DNA of 15,754 nucleotides from a virus: UHGV virus genome UHGV-0069791, one strand, 5' to 3'. Positions 8,837-15,754 of the stretch are shown here, one piece after another (the stretch's first letter is position 1; every line of letters begins with the position of its first letter). A model generated the notes under the pieces. The model did not search any database, was not told the DNA's origin, and saw only the letters and a program-made list of their open reading frames with translations. Position numbers and translations under genes: made by a program.

Positions 8837-10344
8837 TGGCAATTCTTGATGATGTGATTGGCGTTTTTTCACCTGGATGGAAAGCGGCAAGGCTGCGTTC
8901 CCGTGCGGTGATCCAGGCTTATGAAGCCGTAAAAACGACGCGGACACACAAAGCCCGACGGGAGAACCGAACTGCCGACCAGCTAAGCCAGTACGGGGCC
9001 GTGTCGTTACGTGAGCAGGCCCGTTACCTTGATAACAACCACGATCTGGTTATTGGTGTATTTGACAAGCTGGAAGAACGGGTGGTGGGGAAAAACGGGA
9101 TTATTGTCGAGCCACATCCGGTATTACGCAATGGGGCCATTGCCCGTGATCTGGCAGCGGAGATTCGCACCCGATGGAGTGAATGGTCTGTCAGCCCGGA
9201 AGTCACCGGGCAGTTTACCCGTCCGATGCTGGAACGTCTGATGCTGCGTACCTGGCTGCGCGATGGTGAGGTGTTTGCCCAGATGGTTTCCGGGCGCATA
9301 AACAGCCTGACGCCTTCTGCCGGTGTTCATTTCTGGCTGGAGGCGCTCGAGCCAGACTTTATTCCCATGACCAGTGATGAGAGCAACAGGCTGAATCAGG
9401 GCGTGTTTGTTGATGACTGGGGGCGTCCCGAAAAATATCTGGTGTATAAAAGCCGTCCCGTATCCGGACGGCAGATGGAAACCAAAGAAGTGGATGCAGA
9501 GCGAATGCTGCATCTTAAATTTGTTCGCCGTCTGCACCAGATACGCGGGACGTCTTTGTTGTCCGGTGTGCTGATCCGCCTCAGTGCCCTGAAAGATTAT
9601 GAAGATTATGAGCTGACTGCAGCAAGGATCGCCGCTGCTCTGGGGATGTACATCCGCAAAGGCGACGGGCAGAGCTATGAACCGGATGGTAATGGCAGCA
9701 AGGATAAGGAACGCGAGCTTACCATTCAGCCAGGCATTATTTACGACGATCTGAAACCCGGCGAAGAAATCGGAATGGTGAAGTCGGATCGCCCCAATCC
9801 TAACCTTGAAACTTTTCGTAATGGTCAGTTGCGTGCCGTGGCGGCGGGCAGTCGTCTGAGTTTTTCCAGTACAGCGCGCAACTATAACGGCACTTACAGC
9901 GCCCAGCGTCAGGAGCTGGTTGAATCTACTGATGGCTACCTGATCCTGCAGGACTGGTTTATTGGTGCCGTCACCCGCCCGATGTATCGTGCCTGGCTGA
10001 AACAGGCTGTGGCATCCGGTGTTATCAGGCTACCCCGCGATCTTGACCGTTCTTCACTGTATACCGCGGTGTATTCCGGACCAGTGATGCCGTGGATTGA
10101 CCCTGTTAAGGAGGCTGAGGCCTGGAAAATCCAGATTCGTGGTGGAGCGGCGACAGAATCAGACTGGGTACGTGCTGGTGGTCGTAATCCGGATGATGTC
10201 AAACGTCGGCGCAAGGCCGAAATTGATGAAAACCGCAAGCTGGATCTGGTATTTGATACCGATCCGGCCAGTGATAAAGGAGGCAGCAGTGCCGCAACGA
10301 AACGACAGGAGCCGCAGCACACCGACGACCAGTCCGAAGAATAA
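8836..10344 (+). CDS. B: Portal protein (lambda gpB family)
   Basis: 502 aa, placed between W and the protease as in lambda. Start ATG overlaps the W stop (TGATG). The upstream track extension from 8764 is rejected. Confidence 0.9.
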   Translation: MAILDDVIGVFSPGWKAARLRSRAVIQAYEAVKTTRTHKARRENRTADQLSQYGAVSLREQARYLDNNHDLVIGVFDKLEERVVGKNGIIVEPHPVLRNGAIARDLAAEIRTRWSEWSVSPEVTGQFTRPMLERLMLRTWLRDGEVFAQMVSGRINSLTPSAGVHFWLEALEPDFIPMTSDESNRLNQGVFVDDWGRPEKYLVYKSRPVSGRQMETKEVDAERMLHLKFVRRLHQIRGTSLLSGVLIRLSALKDYEDYELTAARIAAALGMYIRKGDGQSYEPDGNGSKDKERELTIQPGIIYDDLKPGEEIGMVKSDRPNPNLETFRNGQLRAVAAGSRLSFSSTARNYNGTYSAQRQELVESTDGYLILQDWFIGAVTRPMYRAWLKQAVASGVIRLPRDLDRSSLYTAVYSGPVMPWIDPVKEAEAWKIQIRGGAATESDWVRAGGRNPDDVKRRRKAEIDENRKLDLVFDTDPASDKGGSSAATKRQEPQHTDDQSEE

Positions 10345-10357
10345 TTCCTGGTTCAGG

Positions 10358-12316
10358 ATGCAGGCTGGTCACCAGAGTGACGCGGATATTTATATTTATG
10401 ACGAGATTGGTTTCTGGGGTGTTACAGCGAAGCAGTTTATCAGTGATCTGAATGCACTGGGCGATATCACCCACATTAATCTCCATATCAATTCACCGGG
10501 TGGCGATGTCTTTGAAGGCATCGCCATTTTTAATGCGCTGAAAACACATGGTGCGTCCATTACCGTTTATGTCGACGGTGTGGCGGCGTCAATGGCGTCG
10601 GTCATTGCGATGGTGGGAAACCCGGTCATTATGCCGGAAAACACCTTCATGATGATTCATAAACCATTTGGCTTTACGGGCGGTGATGCGGAGGACATGC
10701 GCACCTATGCCGACCTGCTCGATAAGGTTGAGGCGGTTCTGTTACCCGCTTATGCACAGAAAACCGGGAAAACCACCGATGAAATTGCTGCCATGCTGGC
10801 GGATGAGACCTGGATGTCCGGTGCCGAATGTCTGGCACATGGATTTGCTGATCAGGTGACGCCAGCCGTTAAGGCAATGGCATGTATTCAGTCAAAACGT
10901 ACAGAGGAATTTAAAAAGATGCCGGAATCCATTCGAAACATGATTACTCCGCCACGCAACAGTGCTCCACGCGTACAGGATGATGAACCTGCAGCCTCCC
11001 GGACGCCAGTGCAGGCAGCAGCACCCGTGGTGGATGAAAACAGTATCCGTGCGCAGGTACTGGCAGAGCAAAAAGCGCGTGTAAACGGTATTAATGATCT
11101 GTTTGCCATGTTTGGCGGGCGTTATCAGACGCTGCAGGCTCAGTGTCTTGCCGATCCTGAATGTTCGCTGGAGCAGGCCCGCGAAAAGCTGTTGAACGAG
11201 ATGGGGCGCGAGTCCACGCCATCCAATAAAAATACACCGGCTCATATTTATGCCGGTAACGGTAATTTTGTGGGGGACGGGATCCGCCAGGCGCTGATGG
11301 CGCGTGCCGGATTTGAAAAAACCGAACGTGATAATGTCTACAACGGGATGACCCTGCGTGAATATGCCCGTATGTCACTGACTGAACGGGGTATTGGGGT
11401 TTCCAGTTATAACCCGATGCAGATGGTCGGTGCGGCGTTCACACACAGTACGTCTGACTTCGGTAATATTCTGCTGGATGTTGCGAACAAAGCCATTCTG
11501 CAGGGCTGGGAAGATGCTCCTGAAACCTATGAACAGTGGACGCGGAAAGGTCAGTTGTCTGATTTTAAAATTGCCCATCGTGTGGGTATGGGGGGCTTCA
11601 GTGCTCTGCGTCAGGTGCGTGAAGGGGCGGAATATAAATACGTCACCACCGGAGATAAACAGGCCACTATTGCACTGGCGACCTATGGCGAGCTGTTCAG
11701 TATCACCCGTCAGGCCATTATCAATGATGATCTGAATATGCTGACCGATGTCCCGATGAAACTGGGCCGTGCGGCGAAATCCACTATTGCCGATCTGGTT
11801 TATGCCATTCTGACGTCTAACCCGAAAATCTCCACAGATAATGTAAGTCTGTTCGATAAAGCGAAACATGCAAACGTACTGGAGAGCGCTGCAATGGACG
11901 TGGCATCGCTGGATAAAGCCCGCCAGTTGATGCGCGTTCAGAAAGAGGGGGAGCGTCATCTGAATATTCGTCCTGCGTTCGTACTGGTACCGACGGCGAT
12001 GGAGTCTGTTGCTAACCAGGTCATTCGCTCCTCAAGTGTCAAGGGGGCTGACATTAACGCCGGTATTATTAACCCGGTGAAAGATTTTGCGACCGTTATT
12101 GCAGAGCCTCGTCTTGATGATAACAGCCAGACCACCTTCTACCTGGCTGCGTCAAAAGGCTCCGATACGATTGAAGTGGCTTATCTCAACGGTGTGGATA
12201 CGCCATATATTGATCAGATGGAGGGCTTCAGTGTGGATGGCGTGACAACGAAAGTGCGTATTGACGCCGGTGTCGCGCCAGTTGATCACCGCGGTCTGGT
12301 GAAATGTACGGCGTAA
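10358..12316 (+). CDS. Fused prohead protease (ClpP-like, S14) / scaffold-like linker / major capsid protein
   Basis: The N-terminal domain has the ClpP-type signature (INSPGGDV, GVAASMAS). The C-terminal ~350 aa look like a major capsid protein. A single uninterrupted ORF of ~652 aa from ATG 10358, just after the portal stop. Confidence 0.85.
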   Translation: MQAGHQSDADIYIYDEIGFWGVTAKQFISDLNALGDITHINLHINSPGGDVFEGIAIFNALKTHGASITVYVDGVAASMASVIAMVGNPVIMPENTFMMIHKPFGFTGGDAEDMRTYADLLDKVEAVLLPAYAQKTGKTTDEIAAMLADETWMSGAECLAHGFADQVTPAVKAMACIQSKRTEEFKKMPESIRNMITPPRNSAPRVQDDEPAASRTPVQAAAPVVDENSIRAQVLAEQKARVNGINDLFAMFGGRYQTLQAQCLADPECSLEQAREKLLNEMGRESTPSNKNTPAHIYAGNGNFVGDGIRQALMARAGFEKTERDNVYNGMTLREYARMSLTERGIGVSSYNPMQMVGAAFTHSTSDFGNILLDVANKAILQGWEDAPETYEQWTRKGQLSDFKIAHRVGMGGFSALRQVREGAEYKYVTTGDKQATIALATYGELFSITRQAIINDDLNMLTDVPMKLGRAAKSTIADLVYAILTSNPKISTDNVSLFDKAKHANVLESAAMDVASLDKARQLMRVQKEGERHLNIRPAFVLVPTAMESVANQVIRSSSVKGADINAGIINPVKDFATVIAEPRLDDNSQTTFYLAASKGSDTIEVAYLNGVDTPYIDQMEGFSVDGVTTKVRIDAGVAPVDHRGLVKCTA

Positions 12317-14004: not shown

Positions 14005-14748
14005 ATGACCACACCAAATCCACTGGCAAAGACGAAAGGTGCGGGGACGACGTTCTGGATGTATACCGGCAACGGCGATGCGTTTGCGAACCCTTTGTCG
14101 GACACTGACTGGCTGCGTCTTGCGATGGTGAAGGATCTGCAACCTGGCGAAATGACCGCTGATGCAGAAGATGACACTTATCTCGATGATGAAGATGCAG
14201 ACTGGAAAACGACAACCCAGGGGCAGAAATCCGTTGGTGATACTTCGGCGACGCTGGCCTGGCGTCCGGGTGACAGCGGGCAGAAAAAACTGGTTCAGTT
14301 GTTCGACTCCGGTGAAGTCTGCGCGTTTCGTATCAAATATCCCAACGGCACTGTTGATGTTTTCCGTGGCTGGCTGAGCTCACTGGGTAAAACCATTGCC
14401 TCAAAAGACGTGATGACCCGCACTGTGAAAATCAGCGGTGTGGGGCGTCCGTATCTGGCAGAGGAAGGCACTGAAACCGTGAGCGTTACCGGGCTGACAG
14501 TATCACCGGCGTCTGCCAGTGTAAAAGTGGGAGCAACCACCACGCTGACCTTTACAGTAAAACCTGACGGAGCCAGTGACAAAGCGATCAGTGTGCATTC
14601 GTCAGATCCACAGACTGCCACGGTTACCCTGAACGGACTTGTGGCCACGGTAAAAGGCGTGAAGCAGGGCAGTGTCAGCATTGTGGGCATGACCGCTGAC
14701 GGGAATTTTGTGGCTGTGACTGCGGTGACTGTCAGCGCAGCAGGTTAA
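14005..14748 (+). CDS. V: Major tail protein V (lambda gpV-like) with C-terminal Ig-like domain
   Basis: Near-collinear with lambda gpV (PNP...KGAGTT.W.Y.G.GD..ANPLSD.DW.RLA.VKDL.PGE.TA...DD.YLDDEDADW, YPNGTVDVFRGW). AAGGAGG Shine-Dalgarno before ATG 14005. The C-terminal Thr/Val-rich Ig-like region matches lambda V. Confidence 0.95.
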   Translation: MTTPNPLAKTKGAGTTFWMYTGNGDAFANPLSDTDWLRLAMVKDLQPGEMTADAEDDTYLDDEDADWKTTTQGQKSVGDTSATLAWRPGDSGQKKLVQLFDSGEVCAFRIKYPNGTVDVFRGWLSSLGKTIASKDVMTRTVKISGVGRPYLAEEGTETVSVTGLTVSPASASVKVGATTTLTFTVKPDGASDKAISVHSSDPQTATVTLNGLVATVKGVKQGSVSIVGMTADGNFVAVTAVTVSAAG

Positions 14749-14768: not shown

Positions 14769-14792
14769 GCCCCGGTTATGCGGGGCTTTTTT
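14769..14792 (+). terminator. Intrinsic terminator-like hairpin after the major tail gene
   Basis: GCCCCG-GTTATG-CGGGGC perfect 6-bp stem followed by TTTTTT, located between the V stop and the G start. Confidence 0.55.
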
Positions 14793-14805: not shown

Positions 14806-15195
14806 ATGATGTTTCTGAAACAGGACACGTTTAATTATGAAAAACAGTCCGTGGTGCTCAGTGAGCTGTCCGGGCTGCAGAGAATTGAATATCTGACGTT
14901 TGTTCAGCAGCGAACGGCAAAGTTTGATGCCGGGGAGGGAGAACTGCCGGAGGCTGAACGACAGATTGCTTTTCTGCGGATGGGGATGGATATCAATGCC
15001 TGGCTGGTTTCCCGCTCACTGTGGAATGCGGATCAGTCTAAGGATGTAGAGACGCTTTGCGCATCCGTTATTACAACATGGTCGTATGATGCCCTGGGTG
15101 CGGGGGCGGAGATGGTTCTGTCGCTGAGCGGTATGGGGGCCATTGATAATGCCGTGGATGATGAGCATGAGGCGCTGACGCCGGAAAAGTCCTGA
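14806..15195 (+). CDS. G: Tail assembly chaperone G (lambda gpG-like)
   Basis: MMFLKQDTFNYEKQSVVLSELSGLQRIEYL resembles the lambda gpG N-terminus (MFLKTESFEHNGVTVTLSELSALQRIEHL). GGTGGAG Shine-Dalgarno before ATG 14806. The track start at 14767 would overlap the terminator and is rejected. Confidence 0.85.
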   Translation: MMFLKQDTFNYEKQSVVLSELSGLQRIEYLTFVQQRTAKFDAGEGELPEAERQIAFLRMGMDINAWLVSRSLWNADQSKDVETLCASVITTWSYDALGAGAEMVLSLSGMGAIDNAVDDEHEALTPEKS

Positions 15196-15203
15196 CGCGG
15201 GAA

Positions 15204-15533
15204 ATGCAGTTTGTCATGCGGCTTGCCCGGGAGTTCCGGCGGGCAGACTGGCGGCGGATGCTGTCGGAAATGTCGGCCACTGAGCTTGGTGAGTGGGGCG
15301 ATTATTTCCGGATGCAGAGCTTCAGTGATGTGTGGATGGATGCGCAGTTTGCCTCGCTGAAGGCATTGATCGTGAGAATGGTGTCCGGCAGCAGTGATGC
15401 TGCGGTGGCTGATTTCAGCCTTTTACCGGAAGAGAACGGGATACCGGAGCGAACGGACGAAGAACTGATGCATCTTGGGGAAGGTATTTCCGGAGGTGTG
15501 CGTTATGGACCAGATAGCCAACCTGGTCATTGA
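15204..15533 (+). CDS. T: T segment of the G-T tail assembly chaperone (expressed by -1 frameshift from G)
   Basis: The ORF lies in the -1 frame relative to G and is open from 15171, overlapping the last 25 nt of G. This is the lambda G/GT arrangement. The first ATG at 15204 is only the ORF-track start, not necessarily an initiation site. Confidence 0.7.
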   Translation: MQFVMRLAREFRRADWRRMLSEMSATELGEWGDYFRMQSFSDVWMDAQFASLKALIVRMVSGSSDAAVADFSLLPEENGIPERTDEELMHLGEGISGGVRYGPDSQPGH

Positions 15534-15754
15534 TTTGGGGATTGATGCGGCAGAGTTTAAAAATGAAATTCCCCGTATCAAAAACCTTCTGAATGGTGCA
15601 GTCAGCGATGCAGAACGGTCTTCTGCCCGTATGCAGCGTTTTATGGAGCGTCAGACTCAGGCCGCCCGGCAGACAACGCAGGCAGCTTCTTCGGCTGCAA
15701 CAGCCGCATCCGTCCATGCGCAGACGGTGGAGAAGAACGCACAGGCTCATGAAC
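15505..15754 (+). CDS. H: Tape measure protein (lambda gpH-like), 5' portion; continues beyond the window
   Basis: MDQIANLVIDLGIDAAEFKNEIPRIKNLL resembles the lambda gpH N-terminus (MAEPVGDLVVDLSLDAARFDEQMARVRR). Open to the window end with no stop. Start overlaps the end of T. Confidence 0.85.
   Translation, partial: MDQIANLVIDLGIDAAEFKNEIPRIKNLLNGAVSDAERSSARMQRFMERQTQAARQTTQAASSAATAASVHAQTVEKNAQAHE

What the first reader, a model, noticed from the sequence alone, without database searches (positions are those of the whole stretch)
15171..15195. G/T programmed -1 frameshift window with a non-canonical slippery heptamer
The T frame is open only from 15171 and G stops at 15195, so any -1 slip must occur in these 25 nt. 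The only heptamer-like site is G-GAA-AAG (15183-15189), not the canonical lambda G-GGA-AAG. The A-site AAG to AAA slip is retained, but P-site re-pairing (GAA to GGA) would be imperfect. Either frameshifting here is lower in efficiency or single-tRNA, or there is a sequencing or variant difference at one base.
Basis: partly seen in the sequence, partly recalled or inferred. Interest (0 to 1): 0.45.

Follow-up and report, generated by a model that had tools for sequence, protein, structure and literature searches.

The report
Known variant G/T frameshift slip site
This is the ordinary lambda-type tail-chaperone (G/T) -1 frameshift site of a lambdoid E. coli phage; its heptamer GGAAAAG is a real, strongly conserved variant, already annotated in other phages, of lambda's GGGAAAG and not a sequencing error.

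Summary
G (PF06894) stops at 15193-15195. The -1 (T, PF06223) frame opens at 15171, after TGA 15168-15170. The only in-phase slip-prone site in the 25-nt overlap is G_GAA_AAG (15183-15189). The base that differs from lambda is 15185, not 15184.

The sequencing-error alternative is refuted. The window is 100% identical to phage PhiR55_1. CGCC-GGAAAAG-YCC-TGA is invariant in every relative examined down to 55% G identity, inside an otherwise hypervariable linker. The junction occurs in about a third of complete E. coli genomes.

G_GAA_AAG also sits at the position homologous to lambda's G_GGA_AAG in phi80, mEp043, N15 and LLS. The N15 and LLS GenBank records annotate it as the -1 slippery sequence. 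T-frame protein conservation begins exactly at the heptamer, and T has no conserved start codon, so a G-T fusion (...TPEK|VLTREMQ..., 241 aa) is expected.

The mechanism is inferred: cognate AAG-to-AAA re-pairing of tRNA-Lys, plus near-cognate GAA-to-GGA re-pairing of tRNA-Glu or slippage of tRNA-Lys alone. Efficiency has not been measured; in vitro this heptamer was used as a poorly slippery control.

One possibly new detail: a clade-specific Shine-Dalgarno-like GAGG lies 10 nt upstream, with dnaX-like spacing. No conserved downstream structure was found. Overall an ordinary feature of low novelty.

The parts
14005..14748 (+). Major tail protein V (tail tube plus C-terminal Ig-like domain), the gene upstream of G
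   Evidence: Pfam Phage_TTP_12 and Big_2. CDS coordinates transferred from the mEp460 and PhiR55_1 annotations. ATG checked.
14769..14792 (+). Intrinsic-terminator-like hairpin plus T-run between V and G
   Evidence: 6 G-C pairs, then TTTTTT. Annotated as a terminator in the mEp460 record and at the same place in N15.
14809..15195 (+). Gene G, tail assembly chaperone (an alternative ATG lies at 14806); zero-frame product of 128 aa ending ...TPEKS*
   Evidence: Pfam PF06894 E=3.8e-40. Translation. Homologues start MFLK.
15168..15170 (+). TGA in the T (-1) frame that closes that frame upstream, setting the 5' limit of the frameshift window
15169..15172 (+). Shine-Dalgarno-like GAGG, 10 nt upstream of the heptamer; a candidate 5' stimulator (inferred, not shown)
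   Evidence: Anti-SD pairing of -5.6 kcal/mol. An SD-like element at this spacing is present in 89% of 18 lineages of the clade, against 10-12% in phi80/N15-like and GGGAAAG groups. The Glu codon here is GAG in 10/10, against GAA 19: GAG 6 elsewhere in the linker.
15183..15189 (+). Slip heptamer G_GAA_AAG (P-site GAA, A-site AAG in the zero frame; GGA AAA after the -1 shift)
   Evidence: Invariant in all relatives. Homologous to lambda G_GGA_AAG. The same heptamer is annotated as the slippery sequence in N15 and LLS.
15193..15195 (+). G stop codon TGA, one sense codon after the heptamer; the 3' limit of the frameshift window
15189..15533 (+). T segment read in the -1 frame after the slip. The predicted G-T fusion is join(14809..15189,15189..15533), 241 aa, with junction ...ALTPEK|VLTREMQFVMRLAREF...
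   Evidence: Pfam PF06223 E=5e-15. Fusion translated. T-frame conservation begins at the heptamer in all 35 lineages compared.
15505..15754 (+). Start of tape measure gene H (runs off the window), overlapping the end of T
   Evidence: Annotations of mEp460 and PhiR55_1. ATG checked.

Best explanation
This is the programmed -1 ribosomal frameshift site of the lambda-type tail assembly chaperone pair G/GT in a mEp460/cdtI/PhiR55_1-type lambdoid phage. Most ribosomes read G to the TGA at 15193 and make the 128-aa chaperone. A minority slip back one base on G_GAA_AAG (15183-15189) and continue in the T frame to 15533, giving a 241-aa G-T fusion (...TPEK|VLTREMQ...). By homology with lambda, the G part binds the tape measure protein H and the T part binds the tail tube protein V.

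The slip rests on E. coli's single tRNA-Lys (anticodon mnm5s2UUU), which re-pairs cognately from AAG to AAA. The P-site tRNA-Glu either re-pairs near-cognately from GAA to GGA (a G-U pair at the middle position) or does not need to re-pair, which would be single-tRNA A_AAG slippage.

The heptamer is a natural, selected alternative to lambda's G_GGA_AAG at the homologous position. A conserved SD-like GAGG 10 nt upstream may pair with 16S rRNA and raise the slip frequency, as in dnaX. Shown here: gene identities, frames, site position, conservation and homology. Inferred: that slippage occurs, its efficiency, which tRNAs move, and any SD effect.
For: - Gene identities and order: G = PF06894, T = PF06223, V upstream, H downstream.
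- The frame geometry limits the shift to 15171-15195. In relatives with a 19-nt overlap the window narrows to TCG CCG GAA AAG TCC.
- G_GAA_AAG is the only re-pairing site in that window.
- CGCC-GGAAAAG-YCC-TGA is invariant in all 18 lineages of the clade (55-100% G identity; the 42%-identity L093 keeps the GGAAAAG heptamer but not these flanks), while the preceding ~20 codons are hypervariable. All the clade's G proteins examined end in PEK followed by S, P or F.
- Across lambda-family G/T pairs the homologous position carries G_GGA_AAG, G_GAA_AAG or A_AAA_AAG.
- T-frame conservation, (G)K[VA][LF]..E..F...LAREF, begins exactly at the heptamer. Upstream, the T frame is unconserved and contains stop codons in most lineages. 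The first Met of T is not conserved; Gifsy-2 has none until after LAREF, about 26 residues past the slip site.
- GenBank records of N15 and LLS mark GGAAAAG as the -1 slippery sequence, and the Gifsy-2 record calls T 'part of G+G' frameshift hybrid'.
- Literature: A_AAG is the most shift-prone tetramer in E. coli (PMC4066793). NNA_AAG sites are used naturally, for example in cdd and IS1222, and G_GA occurs as X_XX in several viral sites (PMC5009743).
Against: - No experiment on this phage or clade was found, and no G-T product has been shown.
- In a reconstituted E. coli system, AUG GAA AAG gave mainly zero-frame product and was described as unfavourable for slippage, in contrast to G GGA AAG (PMC6924986).
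- A_AAG without stimulators is barely above background in vivo (PMC4066793).
- No significant or conserved downstream structure was found (z = -0.67).
- The SD-like element is absent from phi80/N15-like phages that use the same heptamer. It could reflect an acidic linker and shared ancestry.
- Public annotations of this phage list T as a separate gene starting at ATG 15204.
Confidence: 0.85

Rival explanations
1. T is made as a separate 109-aa protein from ATG 15204, as the database annotations imply. This would happen by independent initiation or by termination-reinitiation after the G stop, with no frameshift involved.
For: An ATG lies 9 nt after the G stop, in the T frame. The mEp460, PhiR55_1 and PGAP annotations list T as its own CDS.
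Against: This ATG is not conserved. It is Ile, Arg, Leu or Gln in Salmonella-type relatives, L192, Gifsy-2 and L290, and Gifsy-2 has no Met near the start at all. T-frame protein conservation starts 5 codons upstream of this ATG, at the heptamer, with synonymous T-frame changes in distant relatives such as GTC CTG to GTA TTA in L093. The sequence before the ATG (CGGGAA) is a poor, badly spaced ribosome binding site. Per the Atkins et al. review (PMC5009743), lambda makes gpG by standard translation and gpGT by -1 frameshifting.
Confidence: 0.06
2. The heptamer is a sequencing error or a rare strain variant of the canonical GGGAAAG.
For: It is one base away from lambda's site.
Against: GGAAAAG is identical in all 84 close relatives from IMG/VR and in all further lineages at 55-100% identity from independent assemblies. 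It is also identical in 17 isolated phage genomes. The junction matches at >=95% in the best place of 1,834 of 1,847 matching records from complete E. coli genomes. The encoded PEK is invariant in the clade's proteins examined. The same heptamer is annotated in N15 and LLS.
Confidence: 0.01
3. The site is the same, but slippage involves tRNA-Lys alone (hexanucleotide GAA_AAG type, as in B. subtilis cdd and IS1222). tRNA-Lys slips in the A site, or in the P site while the A site (UCC) is empty. The upstream G at 15183/15184 would then be irrelevant to re-pairing.
For: A_AAG alone supports -1 shifting in E. coli (5.6% with a strong stimulator, PMC4066793). NNA_AAG sites with non-re-pairing 5' codons are used naturally (PMC5009743). 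Second-position mismatch of tRNA-Glu on GGA is noted in PMC6924986.
Against: If only A_AAG mattered, the two bases before it should drift. Instead GG is invariant in all lineages, although the first G is a synonymous third position of Pro, Ala or Val codons (CCG, GCG, GTG). Across the family, position 3 of the heptamer is only A or G, in GG[A/G]AAAG (plus one AAAAAAG). This suggests that P-site re-pairing potential (GGN) is selected.
Confidence: 0.25
4. The -1 product arises by transcriptional slippage of RNA polymerase on the A-run rather than by ribosomal slippage.
For: There is an A4 run inside the heptamer.
Against: From my own knowledge, not checked here, known bacterial transcriptional slippage needs runs of about 8-9 or more A/T. 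Here the run is only 4 A. The phased conservation of the flanking G and GG fits codon-anticodon re-pairing and not polymerase slippage.
Confidence: 0.01

Closest known systems
Phage lambda G/GT programmed -1 frameshift (G_GGA_AAG; Levin, Hendrix and Casjens 1993; Xu, Hendrix and Duda 2004, 2013, 2014, cited through PMC5009743)
   Same: Homologous G (PF06894) and T (PF06223) genes in the same V-G-T-H order. T is in the -1 frame, overlaps the 3' end of G and has no conserved start. The slip site is at the homologous codon positions (T-frame GK-V...). The A-site codon AAG re-pairs to AAA. No downstream structure is evident.
   Different: Heptamer position 3 is A, not G, so the P-site codon is GAA (Glu) and re-pairs on GGA with a middle-position G-U, where lambda's GGA re-pairs on GGG. 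The G stop is 1 codon after the site (5 codons in lambda) and the overlap is 25 nt (64 nt in lambda). A clade-specific SD-like GAGG lies 10 nt upstream, and lambda has none at that spacing. G is only 32% identical.
N15 gene 14/15, phage LLS genes 11/12, and the phi80-type G/T frameshift site GGAAAAG (GenBank annotations NC_001901, PQ299149)
   Same: An identical heptamer, G_GAA_AAG, in the same phase and at the same homologous position. It is explicitly annotated as the -1 slippery sequence.
   Different: Those phages have the lambda-like longer overlap (5 codons between heptamer and stop) and lack the upstream SD-like element. Their G proteins are only about 32-35% identical to this one.
Hexanucleotide/tetranucleotide A_AAG -1 sites in bacteria (B. 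subtilis cdd A_CGA_AAG, IS1222 G_CGA_AAG; PMC5009743, PMC4066793)
   Same: An in-phase A_AAG decoded by the single shift-prone tRNA-Lys. The 5' codon cannot re-pair cognately. Expected efficiency is low to moderate and depends on context.
   Different: Here the 5' codon can re-pair near-cognately (G-C, G-U, A-U), so the site is intermediate between a tetramer and a canonical heptamer. The function is in phage tail assembly, not transposase or incidental expression.
E. coli dnaX -1 frameshift (A_AAA_AAG with an SD-like AGGGAG 10 nt upstream plus a downstream hairpin)
   Same: The A-site codon is AAG. An SD-like element has the same 10-nt spacer to the heptamer (dnaX cassette sequence in PMC6924986).
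   Different: There is no conserved downstream stem-loop. The SD match is weaker (GAGG, -5.6 kcal/mol). The P-site codon is not AAA. Any stimulatory role is untested.

Membership tests
Lambda-type tail assembly chaperone G/GT -1 programmed frameshift | The upstream ORF is a gpG-family chaperone | tested here: met
   PF06894 Phage_TAC_2, E=3.8e-40, full length.
Lambda-type tail assembly chaperone G/GT -1 programmed frameshift | The downstream ORF is a gpT-family domain in the -1 frame that overlaps the 3' end of G and lacks a conserved start of its own | tested here: met
   PF06223, E=5e-15. The -1 frame is open from 15171. The first Met is not conserved among relatives.
Lambda-type tail assembly chaperone G/GT -1 programmed frameshift | Located between the major tail tube gene and the tape measure gene | tested here: met
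   V (PF16461) is upstream. The tape measure gene is downstream according to the annotations of identical or near-identical phages.
Lambda-type tail assembly chaperone G/GT -1 programmed frameshift | A canonical X_XXY_YYZ slippery heptamer, in phase, inside the overlap | tested here: not met
   The site is G_GAA_AAG. XXX = GGA is not three identical bases. The relaxed requirement is met: an in-phase A_AAG plus a near-cognate P-site re-pairing.
Lambda-type tail assembly chaperone G/GT -1 programmed frameshift | The slip site is conserved at nucleotide level among diverged relatives, and T-frame coding conservation starts at it | tested here: met
   Invariant GGAAAAG in 18 lineages of the clade and in phi80/N15-type phages. 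The homologous position carries GGGAAAG in lambda-type phages. T-frame conservation starts at the heptamer.
Lambda-type tail assembly chaperone G/GT -1 programmed frameshift | A G-T fusion protein is produced at a low fixed ratio and is required for tail assembly | not testable with these tools
   This needs a reporter assay, a western blot or mass spectrometry, and phage genetics.
dnaX-type SD-stimulated -1 frameshift | An internal Shine-Dalgarno-like sequence about 10-14 nt 5' of the shift site | tested here: met
   GAGG at 15169-15172 with a 10-nt spacer. It is conserved at this spacing in 16 of 18 lineages of the clade. A functional effect is not tested.
dnaX-type SD-stimulated -1 frameshift | A downstream stem-loop or pseudoknot stimulator 5-9 nt 3' of the shift site | tested here: not met
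   The minimum-free-energy fold is not better than shuffles (z = -0.67). The RNAalifold consensus is -9 kcal/mol with essentially no covariation.
Single-tRNA A_AAG (hexanucleotide NNA_AAG) -1 sites | An in-phase A_AAG decoded by tRNA-Lys(UUU), with a 5' codon unable to re-pair cognately | tested here: met
   GAA_AAG in phase. GAA to GGA is a second-position mismatch (PMC6924986). Invariance of the preceding GG argues that P-site re-pairing still matters, so membership is only partial.

The most novel reading that the evidence does not exclude
In the mEp460/cdtI/Gifsy-2 clade, the weakly slippery G_GAA_AAG heptamer (used as a low-slippage control in vitro) may be made functional by a selected internal Shine-Dalgarno-like element (GAGG, GGAG or AGGTGA) held about 10 nt upstream within an otherwise hypervariable linker. 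This would be a dnaX-like 5' stimulator, not reported for phage G/T sites in the papers found here. It is absent from phi80/N15-type phages with the same heptamer and from GGGAAAG phages. If true, the G:GT ratio in this very common E. coli prophage family is set by rRNA-mRNA pairing plus near-cognate P-site re-pairing.
Probability: 0.3. Interest if true: 0.4.

Novelty: new member of a known kind. Interest (0 to 1): 0.2.

Why it matters
Practically, the finding matters for annotation. In this phage family, present in about a third of complete E. coli genomes, G and T are annotated as two separate genes and the 241-aa G-T fusion is missing. Mechanistically, it is a natural, strongly selected case of -1 frameshifting on a heptamer that biochemists have used as a poorly slippery control. 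Measuring its in vivo efficiency, and the effect of the conserved upstream SD-like element, would show how much P-site mismatch a functional bacterial slip site tolerates and how context compensates. It does not open a new kind of biology.

Tried and rejected
- Downstream stimulatory RNA structure: single-sequence folding of 15190-15290 was no better than shuffles, and RNAalifold on 10 diverged lineages showed no covariation. Rejected.
- GGGAAAT at 15199-15205: it looks lambda-like but lies after the stop and out of phase. Irrelevant.
- Heptamer rarity as evidence: GGAAAAG occurs 4 times in the window against 2.4 expected. Not informative on its own.
- A viral-contig scan with lambda G returned only >=99% identical copies. 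It was useless for diversity, so 12 diverse phage records were fetched instead.
- A genome-contig scan with an alignment gave only 13 loci. These were still useful for distant relatives (L093-L098).
- I tried to read Licznar et al. 2003 (NNA_AAG efficiencies) by DOI and by a guessed PMC id. It is not held. I did not try to look up Xu et al. 2004 directly; it did not appear in my searches of the held library.
- Full-text searches for GGAAAAG as a phage slip site found no paper in the held library. Only GenBank annotations and the in vitro study PMC6924986 mention it.
- An association of the SD-like element with the GGAAAAG heptamer as such was rejected: phi80/N15-type GGAAAAG sites lack it. It is clade-specific.
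- L094 (38% G identity) has neither GGAAAAG nor GGGAAAG, and its slip site was not resolved.

Full report
**What the window is.** The 774 bases around the finding are 100% identical to Escherichia phage PhiR55_1 and 97-99.9% identical to mEp460, cdtI phage, Tritos, Ayreon and others. The window carries a standard lambdoid late region: DNA methylase, lysozyme, Rha, terminase gpA, lambda-family portal, a ClpP-protease/capsid fusion, Z, U, V, then G, T and the start of H. G (14809 or 14806 to 15195) is a full-length PF06894 tail assembly chaperone. The -1 ORF is a PF06223 'minor tail protein T' domain.

**Check of the observation.**
- The G frame reads ...GAG GCG CTG ACG CCG GAA AAG TCC TGA, with the stop at 15193-15195.
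- The -1 frame has TGA at 15168-15170 and is open from 15171 to 15533. Any -1 shift that joins G to T must therefore fall within 15171-15195.
- Going through every codon pair in that window, only GAA AAG, preceded by G, allows re-pairing: the A site goes AAG to AAA (cognate) and the P site goes GAA to GGA.
- The heptamer G_GAA_AAG is at 15183-15189, as stated. The base that differs from lambda's GGGAAAG is 15185, not 15184.
- The string itself is not unusual (4 copies in the window, 2.4 expected). Its meaning comes from phase, place and conservation.

**Not a sequencing error.**
- All 84 close relatives retrieved from IMG/VR carry GGAAAAG.
- After adding more distant relatives, 18 distinct lineages of the clade were available. 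All but L093 have 55-100% G identity and include Gifsy-2 and many Salmonella and E. coli prophages. Those lineages have CGCC-GGAAAAG-(T/C)CC-TGA without exception, while the roughly 20 codons before it are hypervariable in sequence and length. L093 (42% identity) keeps the heptamer in phase but has different flanks (CCAGC-GGAAAAG-TAT-TAA).
- At protein level, all the clade's G homologues examined end in PEK followed by S, P or F after an unalignable acidic linker.
- The junction region is found at 80% or more coverage in 1,831 of 5,426 complete E. coli genomes.

**Homology with the lambda site, and prior knowledge.** I compared 35 lineages of lambda-family G/T pairs. The slip site sits at one homologous position, and the T-frame product always begins (G)K-[V/A]-[L/F]..E..F...LAREF..DWR.ML.

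The heptamer at that position is:
- G_GGA_AAG in lambda, ev017, PhiR42_1, Perceval, PhiR63_1, two Stx-type phages and three Symbiopectobacterium/Serratia prophages;
- A_AAA_AAG in Stx2_12E129;
- G_GAA_AAG in phi80, LLS, mEp043, an Enterobacter Ravinvirus, Phi06_2987, N15, three further distant prophages, and the whole clade of this window.

The N15 record annotates exactly these seven bases as 'slippery sequence for -1 translational frameshift'. The LLS record annotates 'minus-one programmed translational frameshift site GGAAAAG' with a joined CDS. The Gifsy-2 record calls its T 'part of G+G' frameshift hybrid protein'. GGAAAAG is therefore a recognised, widespread alternative to GGGAAAG. What is missing is the annotation in this phage family, where G and T are listed as separate genes.

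**Evidence that T is made by frameshifting at this point.**
- Upstream of the heptamer the T frame is unconserved and contains stop codons in most lineages. From the heptamer onward it is conserved, and it shows changes that are synonymous in the T frame, such as GTC CTG to GTA TTA in L093.
- ATG 15204, used by database annotations as the T start, is replaced by Ile, Arg, Leu or Gln codons in relatives. Gifsy-2 has no Met until after LAREF, about 26 residues past the slip site.
- In relatives with a 19-nt overlap the permitted window shrinks to TCG CCG GAA AAG TCC.
- The predicted product is join(14809..15189,15189..15533), 241 aa, with junction ...HEALTPEK|VLTREMQFVMRLAREF....

**Mechanism (inferred).**
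- The main determinant is A_AAG. E. coli's single tRNA-Lys pairs better with AAA than with AAG, and A_AAG is the most shift-prone tetramer in E. coli. It gives 5.6% with a strong 3' stimulator but is near background alone (PMC4066793).
- Sites of the form NNA_AAG with non-re-pairing 5' codons are used naturally, for example in cdd and IS1222. G_GA occurs as an 'intermediate' X_XX in several viral shift sites (PMC5009743).
- Here the P-site tRNA-Glu would re-pair on GGA with a G-U pair at the middle position.
- The two G's before AAAAG are invariant even though the first is a synonymous third position of CCG, GCG or GTG. This argues that P-site re-pairing is selected, which favours a two-tRNA near-cognate slip over a pure single-tRNA slip. 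That remains an inference.
- A reconstituted-system study used AUG GAA AAG as the 'unfavourable' control. It gave mainly zero-frame product, unlike G GGA AAG (PMC6924986). The natural efficiency is therefore probably low or depends on context. Per the Atkins et al. review (PMC5009743), lambda makes gpG and gpGT at a molar ratio of about 30:1.

**Context elements.**
- No downstream stimulator was found. The local fold is no better than shuffles (z = -0.67), and an alignment fold of 10 diverged lineages shows no covariation.
- Upstream, the window has GAGG at 15169-15172, exactly 10 nt before the heptamer. This is the spacing of the dnaX SD-like stimulator.
- An SD-like element with a 9-14 nt spacer is present in 11 of 12 first-set lineages, against 0-4 of 12 for other equal-width bins.
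- By anti-SD pairing energy, the element is present in 89% of 18 clade lineages. It is present in 12% of phi80/N15-like GGAAAAG sites and 10% of GGGAAAG sites.
- The Glu codon forming the element is GAG in 10 of 10 cases. Elsewhere in the linker GAA outnumbers GAG by 19 to 6 (Fisher p = 4e-5; not corrected for phylogeny).
- This is suggestive of a clade-specific 5' stimulator. It could also reflect shared ancestry and an acidic linker. I rate it at about 0.3.

**Verdict.** The feature is an unannotated member of a known kind, the lambda-family G/GT -1 frameshift with the GGAAAAG variant already annotated in N15 and LLS. Interest is low. The SD-like element and the contrast with in vitro data are modest leads.

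Noticed in passing
window 14769-14792: An intrinsic-terminator-like hairpin (GCCCCGGTTATGCGGGGC followed by TTTTTT) lies in the 57-nt gap between the major tail gene V and G. The same feature is annotated in mEp460 and at the equivalent place in N15. It could lower G/T/H transcription relative to V.
   Followed up: partly
window 15169-15172 (and the equivalent position in L005, L093, L103, L107, L128, L289 and others): A Shine-Dalgarno-like GAGG/GGAG/AGGTGA is held 9-11 nt upstream of the slip heptamer in 16 of 18 lineages of this clade, inside a hypervariable linker. The Glu codon at this position is always GAG. The element is absent from phi80/N15-like and lambda-like G/T sites.
   Followed up: partly
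window 15199-15205: GGGAAAT lies immediately after the G stop codon. It resembles lambda's heptamer but is out of phase and beyond the stop, so it cannot serve the G-to-T shift.
   Followed up: yes
proteins P0025 (215 aa) and P0039 (212 aa): Database proteins that are in-frame G-T fusions created by deletions removing the linker and slip site. For example, P0039 reads ...WSYDA|GKVLTREMQ..., joining directly into the T frame. They are probably defective prophages or assembly artefacts.
   Followed up: no
window 10097-12316: A 739-aa ORF combines a ClpP-type protease domain with a major capsid domain (PF00574 plus PF25209), overlapping the end of the portal ORF. This protease-capsid fusion arrangement differs from lambda's C/Nu3/D/E head genes.
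   Followed up: no
window 14806-14811: There are tandem ATG codons at the start of G. Most homologues begin MFLK, and the GGTGGAG ribosome binding site is better spaced for 14809, so 14809 is the likelier start. Database records disagree: mEp460 uses the first ATG and PhiR55_1 the second.
   Followed up: partly
E. coli RefSeq genomes: This G/T junction occurs in prophages of about one third (1,831 of 5,426) of complete E. coli genomes, with up to 6 copies per genome. PGAP annotates G and T as separate genes with no ribosomal-slippage join.
   Followed up: partly
L094 (Ewingella americana prophage), G 3' end: This G homologue (38% identity) has neither GGAAAAG nor GGGAAAG. Its G ends ...CCA CTG GCA AAA TAG, so a different slip site, possibly G_GCA_AAA or a shift at the stop, must be used.
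   Followed up: no
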